Assembly: GCA_913045505.1 (NCBI GenBank) | Contig: CAJWQN010000001.1 | Span: forward strand, 1-51,527 | From: an uncultured Rhodospirillaceae bacterium | GTDB taxonomy: Bacteria > Pseudomonadota > Alphaproteobacteria > UBA7887 | DNA: 51,527 bases | Direction of reading: 5' to 3' | Shown: positions 27,531 through 30,551 of the stretch, piece after piece | How positions within the stretch are numbered: the first letter of the stretch is position 1 | How the letters are laid out: each line of letters starts with the position of its first letter | Position numbers and translations under genes: made by a program | Notes under the pieces: model-generated | Seen by the model: the letters and a program-made list of their open reading frames with translations, nothing else | Told to the model about the DNA's origin: nothing | Databases searched by the model: none

Positions 27531-27596
27531 CATACCGTATTTTGAGGTTGTTCGGGGCGTTCGCCTACTACATGCTGTAGCCGTACGTGTCTCGAA
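27531..27596 (+). repeat. 66-nt direct repeat, copy A
   Basis: CATACCGTATTTTGAGGTTGTTCGGGGCGTTCGCCTACTACATGCTGTAGCCGTACGTGTCTCGAA. By hand alignment without gaps, 55 of 66 positions are identical to copy B at 30486-30551. Confidence 0.85.
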
Positions 27597-27873
27597 TCTA
27601 TTCACGCTCGCCGCCGCTCTAATTCCGCCCGCGATTGCCCGGCCGACGCTTCCGGGTTTGTCAAGTCCGGGCGCGCTGGACCATGCCGCTTTTTGTCGCA
27701 TCGGATGAGGACGGGGATCGGGACACGGCTCTGGCGGCAATCCCACTTGGCGGGAGTGTGGGCGGTGCGCCCTGAATGCGGCCCGGGCGCCGGTAGATCG
27801 CGTTTGGTACCGCAAGGAAGTTCCGCAACGATCGCTTGCGGCATTGCCACGCCCGCGCGAGAATGGCCGTGCC

Positions 27874-29865
27874 ATGGTCGGGTTGATCTTGACGGCTGGT
27901 CGCGGGAGCGCGGTGCGGCGGGCGTGGGGTTTTGTCATTCTGTGCTGGGCGGCGTTGATGGTCGCGCCCTTCGGCTTGCTCGGTGCCCAGGCGGCGGAGC
28001 AGTGGGATGAGTCGGCCACGGCCGGTCTTGCGCAAAGGATCGCCCTGGTAATCGGTAATGGCGCCTACGCCAGCGCGCCCCTGCGCAATCCGCCCAACGA
28101 CGCGCAATTGATGGCGCGGACCCTGCGCGGGCTCGATTTCGTGGTCATCGAGCGAACCGACCTCGGCCAGGCCGATATGAAGCGGGCCATCCTCGACTTC
28201 GGCACTCGGTTGAAGAAGGCTGGGCCGGATGCGGTCGGCCTGTTCTTCTATGCCGGTCACGGAGTGCAGCTCCAGGGCCGAAATTATTTGATTCCAGTCG
28301 ACGCGCGGATTCGTCGCCAGGCGGAAGTGGACATATTCGGGGTCAATGCAAAATGGGTGCTTGACCAGATGGAGTATGCACGCAACCCACTGAACATAGT
28401 GATATTGGATGCCTGCCGCACCAACCGCTATAGCCGCGACTTTCGCGAAGACAGGGAAGGCTTGGCGCGCATGGACGCGCCGAGCGGGACCTTGATCGCC
28501 TACGCCACGCGGCCGGGCATGGTGGCCGCCGATGGCGCCGGAGATTACAGCCCTTACACAGGTGTGCTGGCGCGCGTGATGCAGACTCCGGGCATGTCAC
28601 TGAATGACGTGTTCATCCAAACGCGGGTCGCGGTCATGGCGGCGACCAATGAAGAGCAGGTGCCGTGGGAAGAGGGCGGGCTAACCGGAAGGTTTTACTT
28701 CAATGCCGGAACCCCTCCGGAGCCTGAGCCACCTCCTGTCGGTACCGAGGGAGTCGCGGCGCGACCGCCCCCGTCGGCAGCACCGGATTCACCCAAACCG
28801 CGCTCGGGCTTCGATGAGCGGCAAATGGAACTGGCATTCTGGGGCTCGGTCAAGGACAGCGGCAATGCGGCGATGATCGAGGAGTATTTGCGACAATTCC
28901 CGAAGGGCCTGTTCGCCGGTTTGGCGCGGATCATGGCGGATCAACTGAATCAAGAGAAGGTGCGGGAGGTGGCGGTAGCGGTCCCGCCGCAGGTGACGGC
29001 CCCACCGGTGCCGGCGGCACCACGGGTCGGCGAGAGCTTCCGCGACTGCCCGGGCTGCCCCGAGATGGTGATGATACCGACCGGGACGTTCCTAATGGGA
29101 TCGCCGGACAGCGAGCGTGGGCGGTACGATAACGAAGGGCCTGCGCACCGTGTGAGCATTGGCCGGGATTTCGCGGTCGGACGTTACGAAGTGACCAGGG
29201 CCGAGTTCGCCGCATTCGTGCTCGCGACCGGGCACAGTGGCTCCGGCTGTTGGTTCTGGGACGCTGAAGCCAAGGAAACCGAATTGGGTCCGGCGAAGAG
29301 TTGGCAGAGTCCCGGCTTCCGTCAGACCGACCGGCATCCCGCGGTCTGCGTGAGCTGGGACGATGCCAAGCGGTATGTAGGGTGGCTGACGCGGACGACG
29401 GGCAAGACGTATCGGTTGCTGTCGGAAGCGGAGTGGGAATATGCCGTGCGGGCGGGCACGGGGACGGCGCGATCTTGGGGTGCTGGTGCCGAAGACGCCT
29501 GTGCCAACGCCAACGTGCACGACCTGACCAGCAAACGCGTGAAAGGGTATGATTGGGTGCATCACGAATGCGATGACGGTTATGTCCAGACCGCGCCTGT
29601 CGGGAGCTTTAGCGCCAATGGACTGGGCTTGCACGATATGCAGGGCAATGCGTGGGAATGGGTGGAGGACTGCTGGCATGAAGATTATGCGGATGCTCCC
29701 AAGGAAGGGATCGTGTGGGCAGGCGGCGAATGCGGTCAGCGGGTTTTGCGCGGCGGCTCCTGGCTCAGCGGACCGTGGGTCGTCCGCTCTGCCAACCGCG
29801 TCGGGTACGGCGCCGGGGGCCGGATCAACGAGTTCGGGTTCCGCGTGGCCAGGACGCTTTATTAG
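27874..29865 (+). CDS. secreted caspase-like peptidase (C14) fused to a formylglycine-generating-enzyme (FGE/SUMF1) domain
   Basis: It has a signal peptide (VILCWAALMVAPFGLLGAQA). The caspase core is RIALVIGNGAY...NPPNDA...FFYAGHGVQ (His) ... IVILDACRTN (Cys). A Pro-rich linker PPEPEPPP follows. The FGE domain has CPEMVMIPTGTFLMGSP...HPAVCVSWDDAKRY..LLSEAEWEYA..GNAWEWVEDCW..RVLRGGSW..FGFRVAR. The ATG at 27874 is preferred over the TTG at 27844. Confidence 0.85.
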   Translation: MVGLILTAGRGSAVRRAWGFVILCWAALMVAPFGLLGAQAAEQWDESATAGLAQRIALVIGNGAYASAPLRNPPNDAQLMARTLRGLDFVVIERTDLGQADMKRAILDFGTRLKKAGPDAVGLFFYAGHGVQLQGRNYLIPVDARIRRQAEVDIFGVNAKWVLDQMEYARNPLNIVILDACRTNRYSRDFREDREGLARMDAPSGTLIAYATRPGMVAADGAGDYSPYTGVLARVMQTPGMSLNDVFIQTRVAVMAATNEEQVPWEEGGLTGRFYFNAGTPPEPEPPPVGTEGVAARPPPSAAPDSPKPRSGFDERQMELAFWGSVKDSGNAAMIEEYLRQFPKGLFAGLARIMADQLNQEKVREVAVAVPPQVTAPPVPAAPRVGESFRDCPGCPEMVMIPTGTFLMGSPDSERGRYDNEGPAHRVSIGRDFAVGRYEVTRAEFAAFVLATGHSGSGCWFWDAEAKETELGPAKSWQSPGFRQTDRHPAVCVSWDDAKRYVGWLTRTTGKTYRLLSEAEWEYAVRAGTGTARSWGAGAEDACANANVHDLTSKRVKGYDWVHHECDDGYVQTAPVGSFSANGLGLHDMQGNAWEWVEDCWHEDYADAPKEGIVWAGGECGQRVLRGGSWLSGPWVVRSANRVGYGAGGRINEFGFRVARTLY

Positions 29866-29997
29866 ATTTCGTATCTTGTCCTCTTTACCTCCCAGGGATC
29901 TAGGGGCGAGGCCCGCTGTCTAATCTCCTCGTTATCGCGAGCCACGGCATTAACGAGGACACTGACAACTCTCGTCAAACCTCCCGGCCCCCCTGAG

Positions 29998-30333
29998 ATG
30001 ATCGCATCAGAGATGATGGTGCTCAACGCCATCGCGCCCCTGGTCCTGATCGAGACCCAAGAAGGCAAGGTGGTCCTGGCGAGTTTCGTGATGTCGGCGG
30101 CGATCATGTCGGCGATTCATCATGCCAAGGGCTTCGTTCGGTCCATCGGCACCGGCCATTTCACATGGTTCCTCCCGCTTGCCTGGTTGGCGACCCGCCT
30201 GGATGCGAGCGGCGATCCGATGCGCGCCTGGCTGATTGCGCTCGTCGTCGTCAACGCACCCTCCTTGGTGATCGATGTGACCGACCGCATCCGCTATTCG
30301 CGCGGCGAGAGAAATATCACCGTGAGGGGATGA
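29998..30333 (+). CDS. hypothetical small membrane protein (111 aa)
   Basis: It has about three hydrophobic segments (VLNAIAPLVLI, VVLASFVMSAAIMSAI, FTWFLPLAWLA, WLIALVVVNAPSLVI). No recognisable family and a weak RBS. It lies in a lower-GC stretch. Confidence 0.35.
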   Translation: MIASEMMVLNAIAPLVLIETQEGKVVLASFVMSAAIMSAIHHAKGFVRSIGTGHFTWFLPLAWLATRLDASGDPMRAWLIALVVVNAPSLVIDVTDRIRYSRGERNITVRG

Positions 30334-30485
30334 TCTCCGAGTTCCGCGCGATCTCGGATTTCCACAACCGTCGTCTCGAGGCGCCGTCGGGGCTGTTCGC
30401 CCCACTGCTCGCCCTCCCTCAGGCCAACGGCCTTGCTCGGACAGGCTCCCGGCGCGCGAGGTTTCGAGCGCCGGGAATGACTCTG

Positions 30486-30551
30486 CATACCGTATTTTGA
30501 GGTTGTTTGGCGCGCCTACGTACTACATGCTGTAGCCGCCCACGTCTCGAA
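30486..30551 (+). repeat. 66-nt direct repeat, copy B
   Basis: CATACCGTATTTTGAGGTTGTTTGGCGCGCCTACGTACTACATGCTGTAGCCGCCCACGTCTCGAA. It has the same length and orientation as copy A. It ends 3 nt before the first ATG of the SWIM-SNF2 ORF. Confidence 0.85.

What the first reader, a model, noticed from the sequence alone, without database searches (positions are those of the whole stretch)
27531..30551. Two 66-nt imperfect direct repeats bracket a lower-GC 2.9-kb cassette
What I see: the copies at 27531-27596 and 30486-30551 have the same length and orientation. By gap-free hand alignment, 55 of 66 positions are identical. Identity is concentrated in three blocks: CATACCGTATTTTGAGGTTGTT, TACTACATGCTGTAGCCG and GTCTCGAA. 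The middle block contains a small hairpin (CTACA-TGC-TGTAG). Each copy follows a hairpin. Before copy A it is a weak one, GCACGA..TCGTGC at 27499-27528. Before copy B it is an 8-bp GC stem, CCCGGCGC..GCGCCGGG at 30448-30475. Each copy also precedes a plus-strand gene. The enclosed DNA holds the caspase-FGE gene and a 111-aa membrane ORF. It is visibly less GC-rich than its surroundings (for example 28261-28460 and 29866-30000). I found no third copy by eye in the window.

Interpretation (inference): there are two options. The repeats could be att-like or target-site duplications marking insertion of a cassette between the flavin reductase and the SWIM-SNF2 gene. No integrase or transposase is present, so this would be a decayed or trans-mobilised element. 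Alternatively, they could be a shared promoter, operator or leader element co-regulating the caspase-FGE and SWIM-SNF2 genes. Copy B ends 3 nt before the first ATG of the SNF2 ORF. A TTGAGG ... TACTAC pair with about 17-18 nt spacing could be read as weak -35/-10 boxes.
Basis: partly seen in the sequence, partly recalled or inferred. Interest (0 to 1): 0.7.

Follow-up and report, generated by a model that had tools for sequence, protein, structure and literature searches.

The report
Duplicated NrdR-type operator before two genes
The two 66-nt repeats are two copies of a promoter carrying a pair of binding boxes for NrdR, the repressor that senses DNA-building-block levels and was thought to control essentially only ribonucleotide reductase genes; here the module sits in front of a SNF2 helicase gene (as in related bacteria) and, by duplication, in front of an exported caspase-FGE gene.

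Summary
The copies at 27531-27596 and 30486-30551 share 55/66 positions, and the window has no third copy. They are not att sites, target-site duplications or REP elements. Each copy is a promoter-like module with two 16-bp NrdR-type boxes 17 bp apart: ATACCGTATTTTGAGG, a linker starting TTG, then C/GTACTACATGCTGTAG. I built a scoring matrix only from ten experimentally bound E. coli and S. coelicolor NrdR boxes. It ranks the two copies first and second in the 51.5-kb window, and 0.7% of random windows reach that score. It also ranks the matching site upstream of the SNF2-SWIM helicase ortholog first in eight other contigs (58-64% protein identity, unrelated neighbours). A pattern derived from these sites also retrieved a genuine nrdR-nrdJ operator from 596 Gb of genomes. 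Between the two copies, 1 of 32 box positions differs against 10 of 34 non-box positions. The closest caspase-FGE relative lies elsewhere in its genome and has no boxes. Best reading: the helicase's own NrdR operator-promoter was duplicated in front of an inserted caspase-FGE/ORF106 cassette. Both genes would then be derepressed when dATP falls. NrdR binding is inferred, not shown. Paired NrdR boxes at non-RNR genes are not described in the papers I read.

The parts
27499..27528 (+). Weak hairpin (GCACGA...TCGTGC) just after the flavin-reductase stop codon and before copy A
   Evidence: Read directly from the sequence. This region is 17/32 identical in register with the region before copy B.
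27531..27596 (+). Repeat copy A: an NrdR-type operator plus promoter-like core, upstream of the caspase-FGE gene
   Evidence: 55/66 identical to copy B. Best NrdR box pair in the whole window: 18.8 bits, linker 17.
27532..27547 (.). Copy A box 1, ATACCGTATTTTGAGG. Of the six key NrdR positions, C4, A8, T9, T11 and G13 match; position 6 is G instead of A.
   Evidence: Key positions are taken from PMC13584703.
27548..27564 (+). Copy A 17-bp linker, starting with the -35-like TTGTTC (27548-27553)
   Evidence: TTG is invariant at this place in all 9 instances. The rest of the linker is variable: 6 of 17 positions differ between copies A and B.
27565..27580 (.). Copy A box 2, CTACTACATGCTGTAG. C4, A6, A8, T9 and G13 match; position 11 is C instead of T. 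It contains the -10-like CATGCT (27571-27576).
   Evidence: It resembles E. coli nrdAB box 2 (GTACTACAGGTAGTCT) and nrdEF box 2 (CAACTACATCTAGTAT).
27597..27873 (+). Non-coding leader of about 280-290 nt between copy A and the caspase-FGE start codon. [quoted passage not shown]
   Evidence: No codon-position GC signal in any frame. No Rfam match. Folds less stably than shuffled sequences, z=+2.2. Homology to L101 begins at 27811.
27874..29865 (+). Caspase (Peptidase_C14) + FGE-sulfatase protein, 663 aa, with a signal-peptide-like N-terminus
   Evidence: Pfam matches at E=2e-38 and 3e-61. Start codon from public gene calls. N-terminal sequence. GC3 is 0.75.
30013..30333 (+). ORF106, a small hydrophobic protein with no family match
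   Evidence: GC3 is 0.81. No Pfam, NCBIfam or PADLOC hit. Called as a gene in public assemblies.
30447..30476 (+). Strong GC-rich hairpin (13-nt arms, 4-nt loop) between ORF106 and copy B; a probable insulator or terminator without a T-tract
30486..30551 (+). Repeat copy B: an NrdR-type operator plus promoter-like core, upstream of the SNF2-SWIM helicase gene (the position seen in orthologs)
   Evidence: Second-best NrdR box pair in the window: 18.1 bits, linker 17.
30487..30502 (.). Copy B box 1, ATACCGTATTTTGAGG (identical to copy A box 1)
30503..30519 (+). Copy B 17-bp linker, starting with the -35-like TTGTTT
30520..30535 (.). Copy B box 2, GTACTACATGCTGTAG. It contains the -10-like CATGCT (30526-30531).
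30570..33485 (+). SNF2-family helicase, 971 aa (alternative start at 30555), with an N-terminal SWIM-type CxC...CxH zinc finger
   Evidence: Pfam SNF2-rel_dom and Helicase_C. C110, C112, C123 and H125 are invariant in 20 orthologs. 100% identical to P0001.

Best explanation
Each repeat is a transcription-control module. It has two 16-bp NrdR-type boxes separated by 17 bp. The linker begins with a -35-like TTG, and the -10-like CATGCT lies inside box 2.

The module belongs ancestrally to the SNF2-SWIM helicase gene. Orthologs in a clade of marine and soil Alphaproteobacteria (contigs labelled Kiloniellales, Kiloniellaceae, Rhodospirillales) carry one copy at the same place. In this lineage a caspase-FGE gene, together with ORF106 and a hairpin, came to lie between the flavin reductase gene and the helicase gene. 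The operator-promoter module, about 66-100 nt, now exists on both sides of that cassette.

By analogy with RNR promoters, the inferred mechanism is as follows. When dATP is plentiful, a tetramer of NrdR loaded with dATP and ATP binds both boxes. It bends the DNA and blocks RNA polymerase. When dATP falls relative to ATP, NrdR shifts to oligomers that cannot bind DNA, and both genes are transcribed along with the RNR genes.

Shown here: the sequence match to NrdR operators, its conservation, and selection on the box positions. Inferred: NrdR binding, the promoter hexamers, the direction of the duplication, and any physiological role.
For: (1) A matrix built only from ten experimentally bound E. 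coli and S. coelicolor NrdR boxes (PMC13584703) ranks copies A and B first and second among all box pairs in the window (18.8 and 18.1 bits; the next is 14.5). In 300 Markov random windows the maximum is 9.9 +/- 2.7, and 0.7% reach 18.7.

(2) The same matrix ranks the site upstream of the SNF2 ortholog first in L001, L002, L003, L084, L086, L089 and L090 (20-30 bits, linker 17) and in L103 (20 bits, linker 16). A genuine nrdR operator scores 31 bits.

(3) Ranks hold with a uniform background. Of 1000 column-permuted palindromic decoy matrices, only 0-14 reach the real score at any one site. AT-richness alone therefore does not explain the match.

(4) The six highly conserved NrdR positions (C4, A6, A8, T9, T11, G13) match in 96 of 108 cells across 9 instances.

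(5) A degenerate pattern derived from the SNF2 sites gave 7 hits in 596 Gb of genomes. Three are SNF2 upstream regions. One lies directly upstream of an nrdR-nrdJ operon.

(6) A 17-bp spacer binds and represses as well as 15-16 bp (PMC12051234). In S. coelicolor nrdRJ the linker also starts with TTG right after ...GTGG.

(7) Between copies A and B, 1 of 32 box positions differs against 10 of 34 other positions (Fisher P=0.006).

(8) Gene neighbours differ in every ortholog locus, so the module travels with the SNF2 gene.

(9) The closest caspase-FGE relative (81% nt identity starting 63 nt upstream of the start codon) lies between smr and hslUV. Its best box-pair score anywhere in the locus is 12.8 bits, located downstream of the gene.
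Against: No NrdR binding, transcription start or expression data exist for this organism.

No nrdR gene or RNR gene is in the window (Pfam). The rest of the genome could not be reached, so the presence of NrdR and the form of its RNR operators in this lineage are assumed.

The two window copies are the weakest of all instances. Box 1 has G at position 6, and an A6G change in both boxes cost 4- to 10-fold in affinity. Box 2 has C at position 11. At the level of the six key positions alone, 10/12 matches occur about 6 times by chance per window.

The spacer is 17 bp, at the edge of the common 15-16 bp range.

Copy A lies about 290 nt from the caspase-FGE start codon, so another promoter may drive that gene.

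The core hexamers are weak (3/6 + 3/6) and were not called by the promoter scan.

SNF2 orthologs at 49-56% identity (L004-L006) have no such site.
Confidence: 0.68

Rival explanations
1. The repeats are attL/attR-like sites or target-site duplications left when a mobile cassette inserted between the flavin reductase and SNF2 genes.
For: Direct repeats bracket a 2.9-kb segment whose main gene has somewhat lower GC3 (0.75). That gene's closest relative sits at a different locus. Weak similarity extends about 32 nt upstream of both copies. Two other assemblies of the same population break inside the cassette tail.
Against: Identity is only 83% and is concentrated on NrdR box positions. No integrase, transposase or recombinase lies in the surrounding genes that were examined. 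There is no match in phage, plasmid or viral collections. The same module occurs once, without any cassette, in front of SNF2 orthologs in nine other contexts. It is therefore a resident regulatory region and not an element end. Sixty-six nucleotides is far longer than a transposase target-site duplication.
Confidence: 0.07
2. The repeats are a shared promoter/operator, but the regulator is some other factor or only RNA polymerase. On this view the resemblance to NrdR boxes is coincidental.
For: Fixed spacing and conserved TTG and CATNNT elements are what any conserved promoter shows. The window copies each miss one key NrdR position per box. NrdR is described as RNR-specific, and no non-RNR gene had paired boxes in E. 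coli or P. aeruginosa (bioRxiv 10.1101/2025.03.28.645925).
Against: The NrdR matrix was built without these sequences. It still picks the site first in all nine loci and beats 98.6-100% of the column-permuted decoy matrices (0-14 of 1000 reach the real score at any site). Conservation is highest at the six NrdR contact positions (mean information 1.68 bits, against 1.09 for other box positions and 0.79 for the linker without TTG). The derived pattern retrieved a real nrdR operator. L103 has a differently sequenced pair with the canonical 16-bp spacer at the same gene.
Confidence: 0.15
3. Copy A is a functionless relic. It was carried along by a duplication or insertion, and the caspase-FGE gene is expressed from its own promoter closer to the gene.
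For: There are about 290 nt of non-coding, unstructured DNA between copy A and the start codon. The 63 nt directly upstream of the gene are conserved with the relative that has no boxes, and may carry the native promoter.
Against: Outside the boxes the two copies have diverged to 53-71% identity. Inside the boxes, 31 of 32 positions are identical. This pattern argues for continued selection on both copies.
Confidence: 0.12
4. The repeats belong to a dispersed REP- or MITE-like family of intergenic repeats.
For: They are short, intergenic and contain small palindromes.
Against: The window holds only two copies. Three related genomes each have exactly one match to the derived pattern, always upstream of SNF2. 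No viral or plasmid copies exist.
Confidence: 0.02

Closest known systems
NrdR operators of ribonucleotide reductase promoters (e.g. S. coelicolor nrdRJ, E. coli nrdHIEF and nrdAB)
   Same: Both have two partially palindromic 16-bp boxes with C4, A6, A8, T9, T11 and G13. The spacer falls in the functional 14-17 bp range. The boxes flank and overlap the core promoter. The junction ...GTGG|TTG... is as in S. coelicolor nrdRJ. Box 2 closely resembles E. coli nrdAB and nrdEF box 2.
   Different: The downstream genes are not RNR genes or nrdR. They are a SNF2-SWIM helicase and an exported caspase-FGE protein. The spacer is 17 bp and not the commonest 15-16 bp. The two window copies each deviate at one key position per box. 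Binding is untested.
Single NrdR boxes at non-RNR genes (topA in Pseudomonas aeruginosa, dnaA in Shewanella)
   Same: These are also predicted or tested NrdR sites outside RNR operons (PMC4409342; bioRxiv 10.1101/2025.03.28.645925).
   Different: Those sites have one box, and their regulation is weak, activating or not reproducible. Here there is a full two-box operator with RNR-like spacing. It is conserved across a clade and duplicated within one genome.
Regulon growth by duplication of a cis-regulatory module (promoter or operator capture)
   Same: A resident operator-promoter is copied in front of a newly arrived gene, which brings that gene under the same signal.
   Different: The mechanism and direction of the copying are not known here. 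The two copies flank the insert like recombination products.

Membership tests
NrdR operator (NrdR box pair) | Two 16-bp partially palindromic boxes carrying the highly conserved C4, A6, A8, T9, T11 and G13 | tested here: met
   The window copies match 5/6 + 5/6. All nine instances together match 96/108. The matrix from bound E. coli and S. coelicolor boxes ranks the sites first in every locus. Caveat: the published strict regex is satisfied fully only by L086, not by the window copies.
NrdR operator (NrdR box pair) | Box spacing of 14-17 bp (or 24-27 bp), i.e. a whole number of helix turns between box centres | tested here: met
   The linker is 17 bp in both copies and in seven orthologous sites, and 16 bp in L103. 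A 17-bp spacer binds and represses (PMC12051234).
NrdR operator (NrdR box pair) | [quoted passage not shown] | tested here: inconclusive
   A conserved TTG follows box 1, and a CATNNT lies inside box 2 at 17-nt spacing in all instances. The hexamers are weak, the scan did not call them, and no transcription start data exist.
NrdR operator (NrdR box pair) | Located upstream of RNR genes or nrdR | tested here: not met
   The downstream genes are caspase-FGE and a SNF2 helicase. No RNR or nrdR gene is in the window or in the ortholog loci. This is the point of difference. It concerns the target genes, not the operator sequence.
NrdR operator (NrdR box pair) | The genome encodes NrdR, and NrdR-dATP/ATP binds the site | not testable with these tools
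   Only one contig of the genome is available.
att sites or target-site duplication of a mobile element | Near-identical repeats at the element ends, with a recombinase or transposase in or next to the element | tested here: not met
   Identity is 83% and patchy. There are no integrase or transposase domains in the genes examined between 16.7 and 43.9 kb. There are no phage, plasmid or viral matches.
REP- or MITE-like dispersed repeat | Many copies scattered in unrelated intergenic regions | tested here: not met
   Two copies in 51.5 kb. One pattern match per related genome.
Known anti-phage defence systems (PADLOC models) | The proteins match a defined system component above family level | tested here: not met
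   The SNF2 protein matches only the shared helicase core of DpdE, ZorD and DrmD. Caspase-FGE gives a weak generic caspase hit. ORF106 gives none. NCBIfam scores are far below the cut-offs.

The most novel reading that the evidence does not exclude
NrdR, regarded as an RNR-specific repressor, has in one clade of Alphaproteobacteria a genuine two-box operator on a SNF2-SWIM DNA translocase gene. In this genome the operator has been copied onto an exported caspase-FGE gene. A drop in dATP, from replication stress, starvation or phage DNA synthesis, would then switch on more than dNTP synthesis. It would also induce a fork- or DNA-remodelling enzyme and a protease-type effector. The operator duplication would be a caught-in-the-act example of how such a regulon grows.
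Probability: 0.45. Interest if true: 0.65.

Novelty: new variant of a known kind. Interest (0 to 1): 0.55.

Why it matters
NrdR is nearly universal in bacteria and is being pursued as an antibacterial target, on the premise that it controls only ribonucleotide reductases. The studies I read found paired boxes only at RNR operons and took this as evidence that the oligomer-switch mechanism is RNR-specific.

A conserved, RNR-style two-box operator on a SNF2-SWIM helicase gene would extend the dNTP-sensing circuit to a DNA-remodelling enzyme of unknown function. That gives a concrete lead to the helicase's role, such as a replication-stress response. This lead is my inference, by analogy with eukaryotic SNF2 fork remodellers.

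The duplicated copy in front of a newly arrived caspase-FGE gene shows how a horizontally moved gene can be wired into an existing signal. All of this can be tested with a gel-shift or thermophoresis assay and a reporter fusion.

Tried and rejected
- Rfam (E<=1) on 26500-31500 gave no RNA family. The 290-nt leader folds worse than shuffled sequences and shows no coding signal. A riboswitch, small RNA or leader peptide is therefore not supported.
- The sigma-70 and terminator scan called nothing at the repeats.
- I compared the motif by eye and from memory with the alphaproteobacterial LexA box (GTTC-N7-GTTC), sigma-32, EcfG, DnaA, CtrA and DriD/PafBC-type motifs. None fits in sequence or spacing. 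These comparisons were not computed tests.
- The plasmid search with the repeat found nothing, as did the phage search and the viral-contig pattern scan.
- The plasmid tblastn for SNF2 orthologs found only a 31%-identical Bacillus helicase. I tried it to find a cultured host.
- Counting the six key positions alone, allowing two misses, is not specific: about 6 chance hits per window. I replaced it with the full matrix and decoy controls.
- The leader after copy A shows no significant homology to the SNF2 5' region, and the wider upstream flanks show none to each other.
- The window's caspase-FGE has no relative in the SNF2-ortholog loci.
- Contig look-up failed for the Reyranella ortholog P0038. 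The Vineibacter-like locus L104 gave an ambiguous single strong box inside the annotated ORF.

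
Full report
**Observation**

They are direct and gap-free, with 55 of 66 positions identical. The 22-nt and 18-nt identity blocks each occur exactly twice in the 51.5-kb window, even with three mismatches allowed. Shuffled sequence gives 0.00 and 0.01 expected matches. Both hairpins are real. The one before copy B has 13-nt arms. Weak similarity runs about 32 nt further upstream (17/32, P=0.004).

The compositional claim is only mildly true. Caspase-FGE has GC3 of 0.75 and ORF106 0.81, against 0.83-0.90 for the immediate neighbours. 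Other genes in the window are equally low, and similar GC dips occur elsewhere.

**Context**

The window is a whole contig of a marine alphaproteobacterial MAG. The helicase is 100% identical to a protein named 'MAG: Alphaproteobacteria bacterium', whose longest contig is 51,527 bp. TARA scaffolds carry the same locus.

The gene order is: flavin reductase (26994-27497), copy A, a 280-290-nt leader, caspase-FGE (27874-29865, signal-peptide-like N-terminus), ORF106 (30013-30333), a strong hairpin, copy B, then the SNF2 helicase with a SWIM-type zinc finger (30570-33485). The surrounding genes are ordinary metabolic and envelope genes. None is an integrase, transposase, RNR gene or nrdR.

**The lead from related sequences**

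I fetched contigs encoding the closest helicase orthologs (58-64% identity). The same motif lies just upstream of the gene in all of them...ATATTGTGG TTG-N14-C TACTACAT ATTG..., with fixed spacing. This holds although the neighbouring genes differ in every contig: toxin-antitoxin pairs, integrases, IS elements, oxidoreductases.

The conserved blocks of the window's repeat are therefore the conserved upstream element of the helicase gene. A degenerate pattern built from these instances found 7 places in 596 Gb of species-representative genomes. Three were helicase upstream regions, one per genome, in contigs labelled Kiloniellales, Kiloniellaceae and Rhodospirillales. This rules out a dispersed repeat family.

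**Identification as an NrdR operator**

The element consists of two partially palindromic 16-mers whose centres are 33 bp apart. This resembles the binding site of NrdR, the dATP/ATP-sensing repressor of ribonucleotide reductase genes. That site is described as two 16-bp boxes with highly conserved C4, A6, A8, T9, T11 and G13, usually 15-16 bp apart (PMC13584703). I ran five tests.

- **Independent matrix.** I built a scoring matrix only from the ten E. coli and S. coelicolor boxes with measured NrdR binding and scanned for box pairs with 14-18-bp linkers. Copies A and B are the two best pairs in the window (18.8 and 18.1 bits; the next is 14.5). Random windows reach a maximum of 9.9 +/- 2.7, and 0.7% reach 18.7.
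- **Orthologs.** The helicase-upstream site is the best pair in each of L001, L002, L003, L084, L086, L089 and L090 (20-30 bits). In the more distant L103 a differently sequenced pair with the canonical 16-bp linker scores 20 bits. A true nrdR operator scores 31 bits.
- **Controls for AT-richness.** The ranks survive a uniform background. Of 1000 column-permuted palindromic decoy matrices, 0-14 reach the real score at any site.
- **Key positions.** The six key positions match in 96 of 108 cells. They are the most conserved columns: 1.68 bits, against 1.09 for other box columns and 0.79 for the linker without TTG.
- **Unplanned positive control.** One of the four genome-scan hits not upstream of an SNF2 gene lies directly upstream of an nrdR gene followed by a class II RNR-like ORF.

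The 17-bp linker is inside the functional range. All four NrdR proteins tested bound best at 15-17 bp, and repression in vivo held at 15-17 bp (PMC12051234). The junction ...GTGG|TTG... and the box 2 sequence have close counterparts in S. coelicolor nrdRJ and in E. coli nrdAB and nrdEF.

**Promoter**

In every instance TTG follows box 1. Seventeen nt after the TTGNNN hexamer, a hexamer CATNNT lies inside box 2 (TTGATC...CATATT in the best examples; TTGTTC/TTGTTT...CATGCT in the window). This fits the usual arrangement, in which NrdR boxes overlap the polymerase site (PMC9110341). It remains an inference. The hexamers are weak and the consensus scan did not call them.

**The two copies compared**

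Only 1 of 32 box positions differs between A and B, and that is box position 1, which is not conserved. By contrast, 10 of 34 other positions within the 66-mer differ (Fisher P=0.006). Identity in the 32 nt upstream has decayed to 53%. This is the signature of an older duplication, or of two homologous operators, with both copies kept under selection at the protein-contact positions. It is not the signature of a recent att or target duplication.

**Origin of the cassette**

The nearest caspase-FGE relative (P0122) aligns at 81% nucleotide identity, starting 63 nt upstream of the start codon (window 27811). It lies between smr and hslUV in its genome. The best box-pair score anywhere in that locus is 12.8 bits, and that pair is downstream of the gene. 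The 214 nt between copy A and 27811 have no counterpart anywhere I could search.

The caspase-FGE gene is therefore not normally linked to NrdR boxes or to the helicase. Here it has been placed behind a second copy of the helicase's operator. I could not tell how this happened. Possibilities include insertion by recombination at the operator or a local duplication. I also could not tell which copy is the original.

**Mechanism proposed**

NrdR loaded with dATP and ATP binds the two boxes as a tetramer and blocks the promoter. When dATP falls, NrdR changes oligomeric state and leaves the DNA (established for RNR promoters; PMC9110341, PMC12051234). Applied here, the helicase would be co-induced with the RNR genes in the whole clade, and the caspase-FGE gene would be co-induced as well in this genome. 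This application rests on inference from the sequence. A role of the helicase in replication stress is speculation, by analogy with eukaryotic SNF2 fork remodellers.

**Weak points**

- The window copies are the poorest matches of all. Box 1 has G at position 6 and box 2 has C at position 11. A6G in both boxes reduced affinity 4- to 10-fold.
- Copy A is far from the caspase-FGE start codon.
- The genome's nrdR and RNR operators could not be examined.
- More distant helicase orthologs (49-56% identity) lack the site.

**Comparison with what is known**

The papers I could read describe NrdR as RNR-specific. The non-RNR candidates (topA, dnaA) have a single box. [quoted passage not shown] No paper in the library mentions NrdR together with SNF2 in this sense.

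The element is thus a known kind of operator in a new place, conserved across a clade and duplicated within one genome. It is not a member of any defence system in PADLOC.

**Verdict**

The regulatory reading is supported and sharpened to an NrdR-type operator-promoter. The att/TSD reading is rejected as the nature of the repeats, although the enclosed gene is probably an insertion. Novelty: a new variant of a known kind. Interest is moderate to high for people working on NrdR and nucleotide-pool signalling, and depends on a simple binding test.

Noticed in passing
L095 (contig JAGWHG010000046.1) 1988-2490, minus strand: An nrdR gene (159 aa, 51% identical to E. coli NrdR) is followed by a class II RNR-like ORF and preceded by three NrdR-like boxes. 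The contig is labelled Candidatus Micrarchaeota. Either this small archaeon carries NrdR or the contig is misbinned.
   Followed up: partly
L091 (Thermoclostridium MAG contig DASRMZ010000144.1) 3387-3435: A two-box NrdR-like site (22 bits, 17-bp linker) lies in a roughly 1-kb gap without ORFs, next to a gene for a secreted 373-aa protein. No RNR gene is in view. It may be chance, or another non-RNR NrdR target.
   Followed up: no
L003 14254-14562 (minus) and 5611-5976 (minus): A homolog of the window's ORF106 (44% identity over 103 aa) lies 3.5 kb downstream of the SNF2 ortholog. A short Peptidase_C14 fragment gene lies 2 kb upstream, beside integrase and transposase genes. The fragment is not detectably related to the window's caspase-FGE.
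   Followed up: partly
L001, L002, L003, L084, L086 (flanks of the SNF2 orthologs): The SNF2-SWIM orthologs are repeatedly flanked by toxin-antitoxin pairs (PhdYeFM/PIN, MazE/PIN, PemK), integrases and IS elements. The gene appears to sit in variable genome regions.
   Followed up: no
L002 7909-8003, L084 5909-6003, L086 4690-4783: The roughly 95-nt 5' leader between box 2 and the SNF2 start codon is highly conserved in these three contigs, including an invariant 24 nt before the ATG. A consensus fold exists, but with almost no covariation.
   Followed up: partly
L099 and L100 (same population as the window), first 413 and 350 nt: Two independent assemblies of the same locus end inside the tail of the cassette, just upstream of copy B. 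This could reflect strain heterogeneity at the cassette or only low coverage.
   Followed up: no
L104 3023-3038: In a Vineibacter-like contig a perfectly palindromic NrdR-type box (ACGCAATATATTGCGT) lies 22 nt inside the annotated SNF2 reading frame, with only a weak partner box. Either the start codon is mis-annotated or this is a single-box site.
   Followed up: partly
L001 7916-7924: TTATCCACA, the consensus DnaA box, lies immediately upstream of and overlaps box 1 of the SNF2 operator in this contig only.
   Followed up: no
window 35307-35396 and 36734-36823: A 90-nt direct repeat (74% identity) lies inside neighbouring HdrA-like FAD/FeS oxidoreductase genes. This is most simply explained by paralogous domains in a heterodisulfide-reductase-like gene cluster (34570-39640).
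   Followed up: partly
window 27874-27990: The caspase-FGE protein starts with a signal-peptide-like segment (MVGLILTAGRGSAVRRAWGFVILCWAALMVAPFGLLGAQA). It is probably exported or membrane-anchored, which is unexpected for a gene tied to a nucleotide-pool sensor.
   Followed up: no
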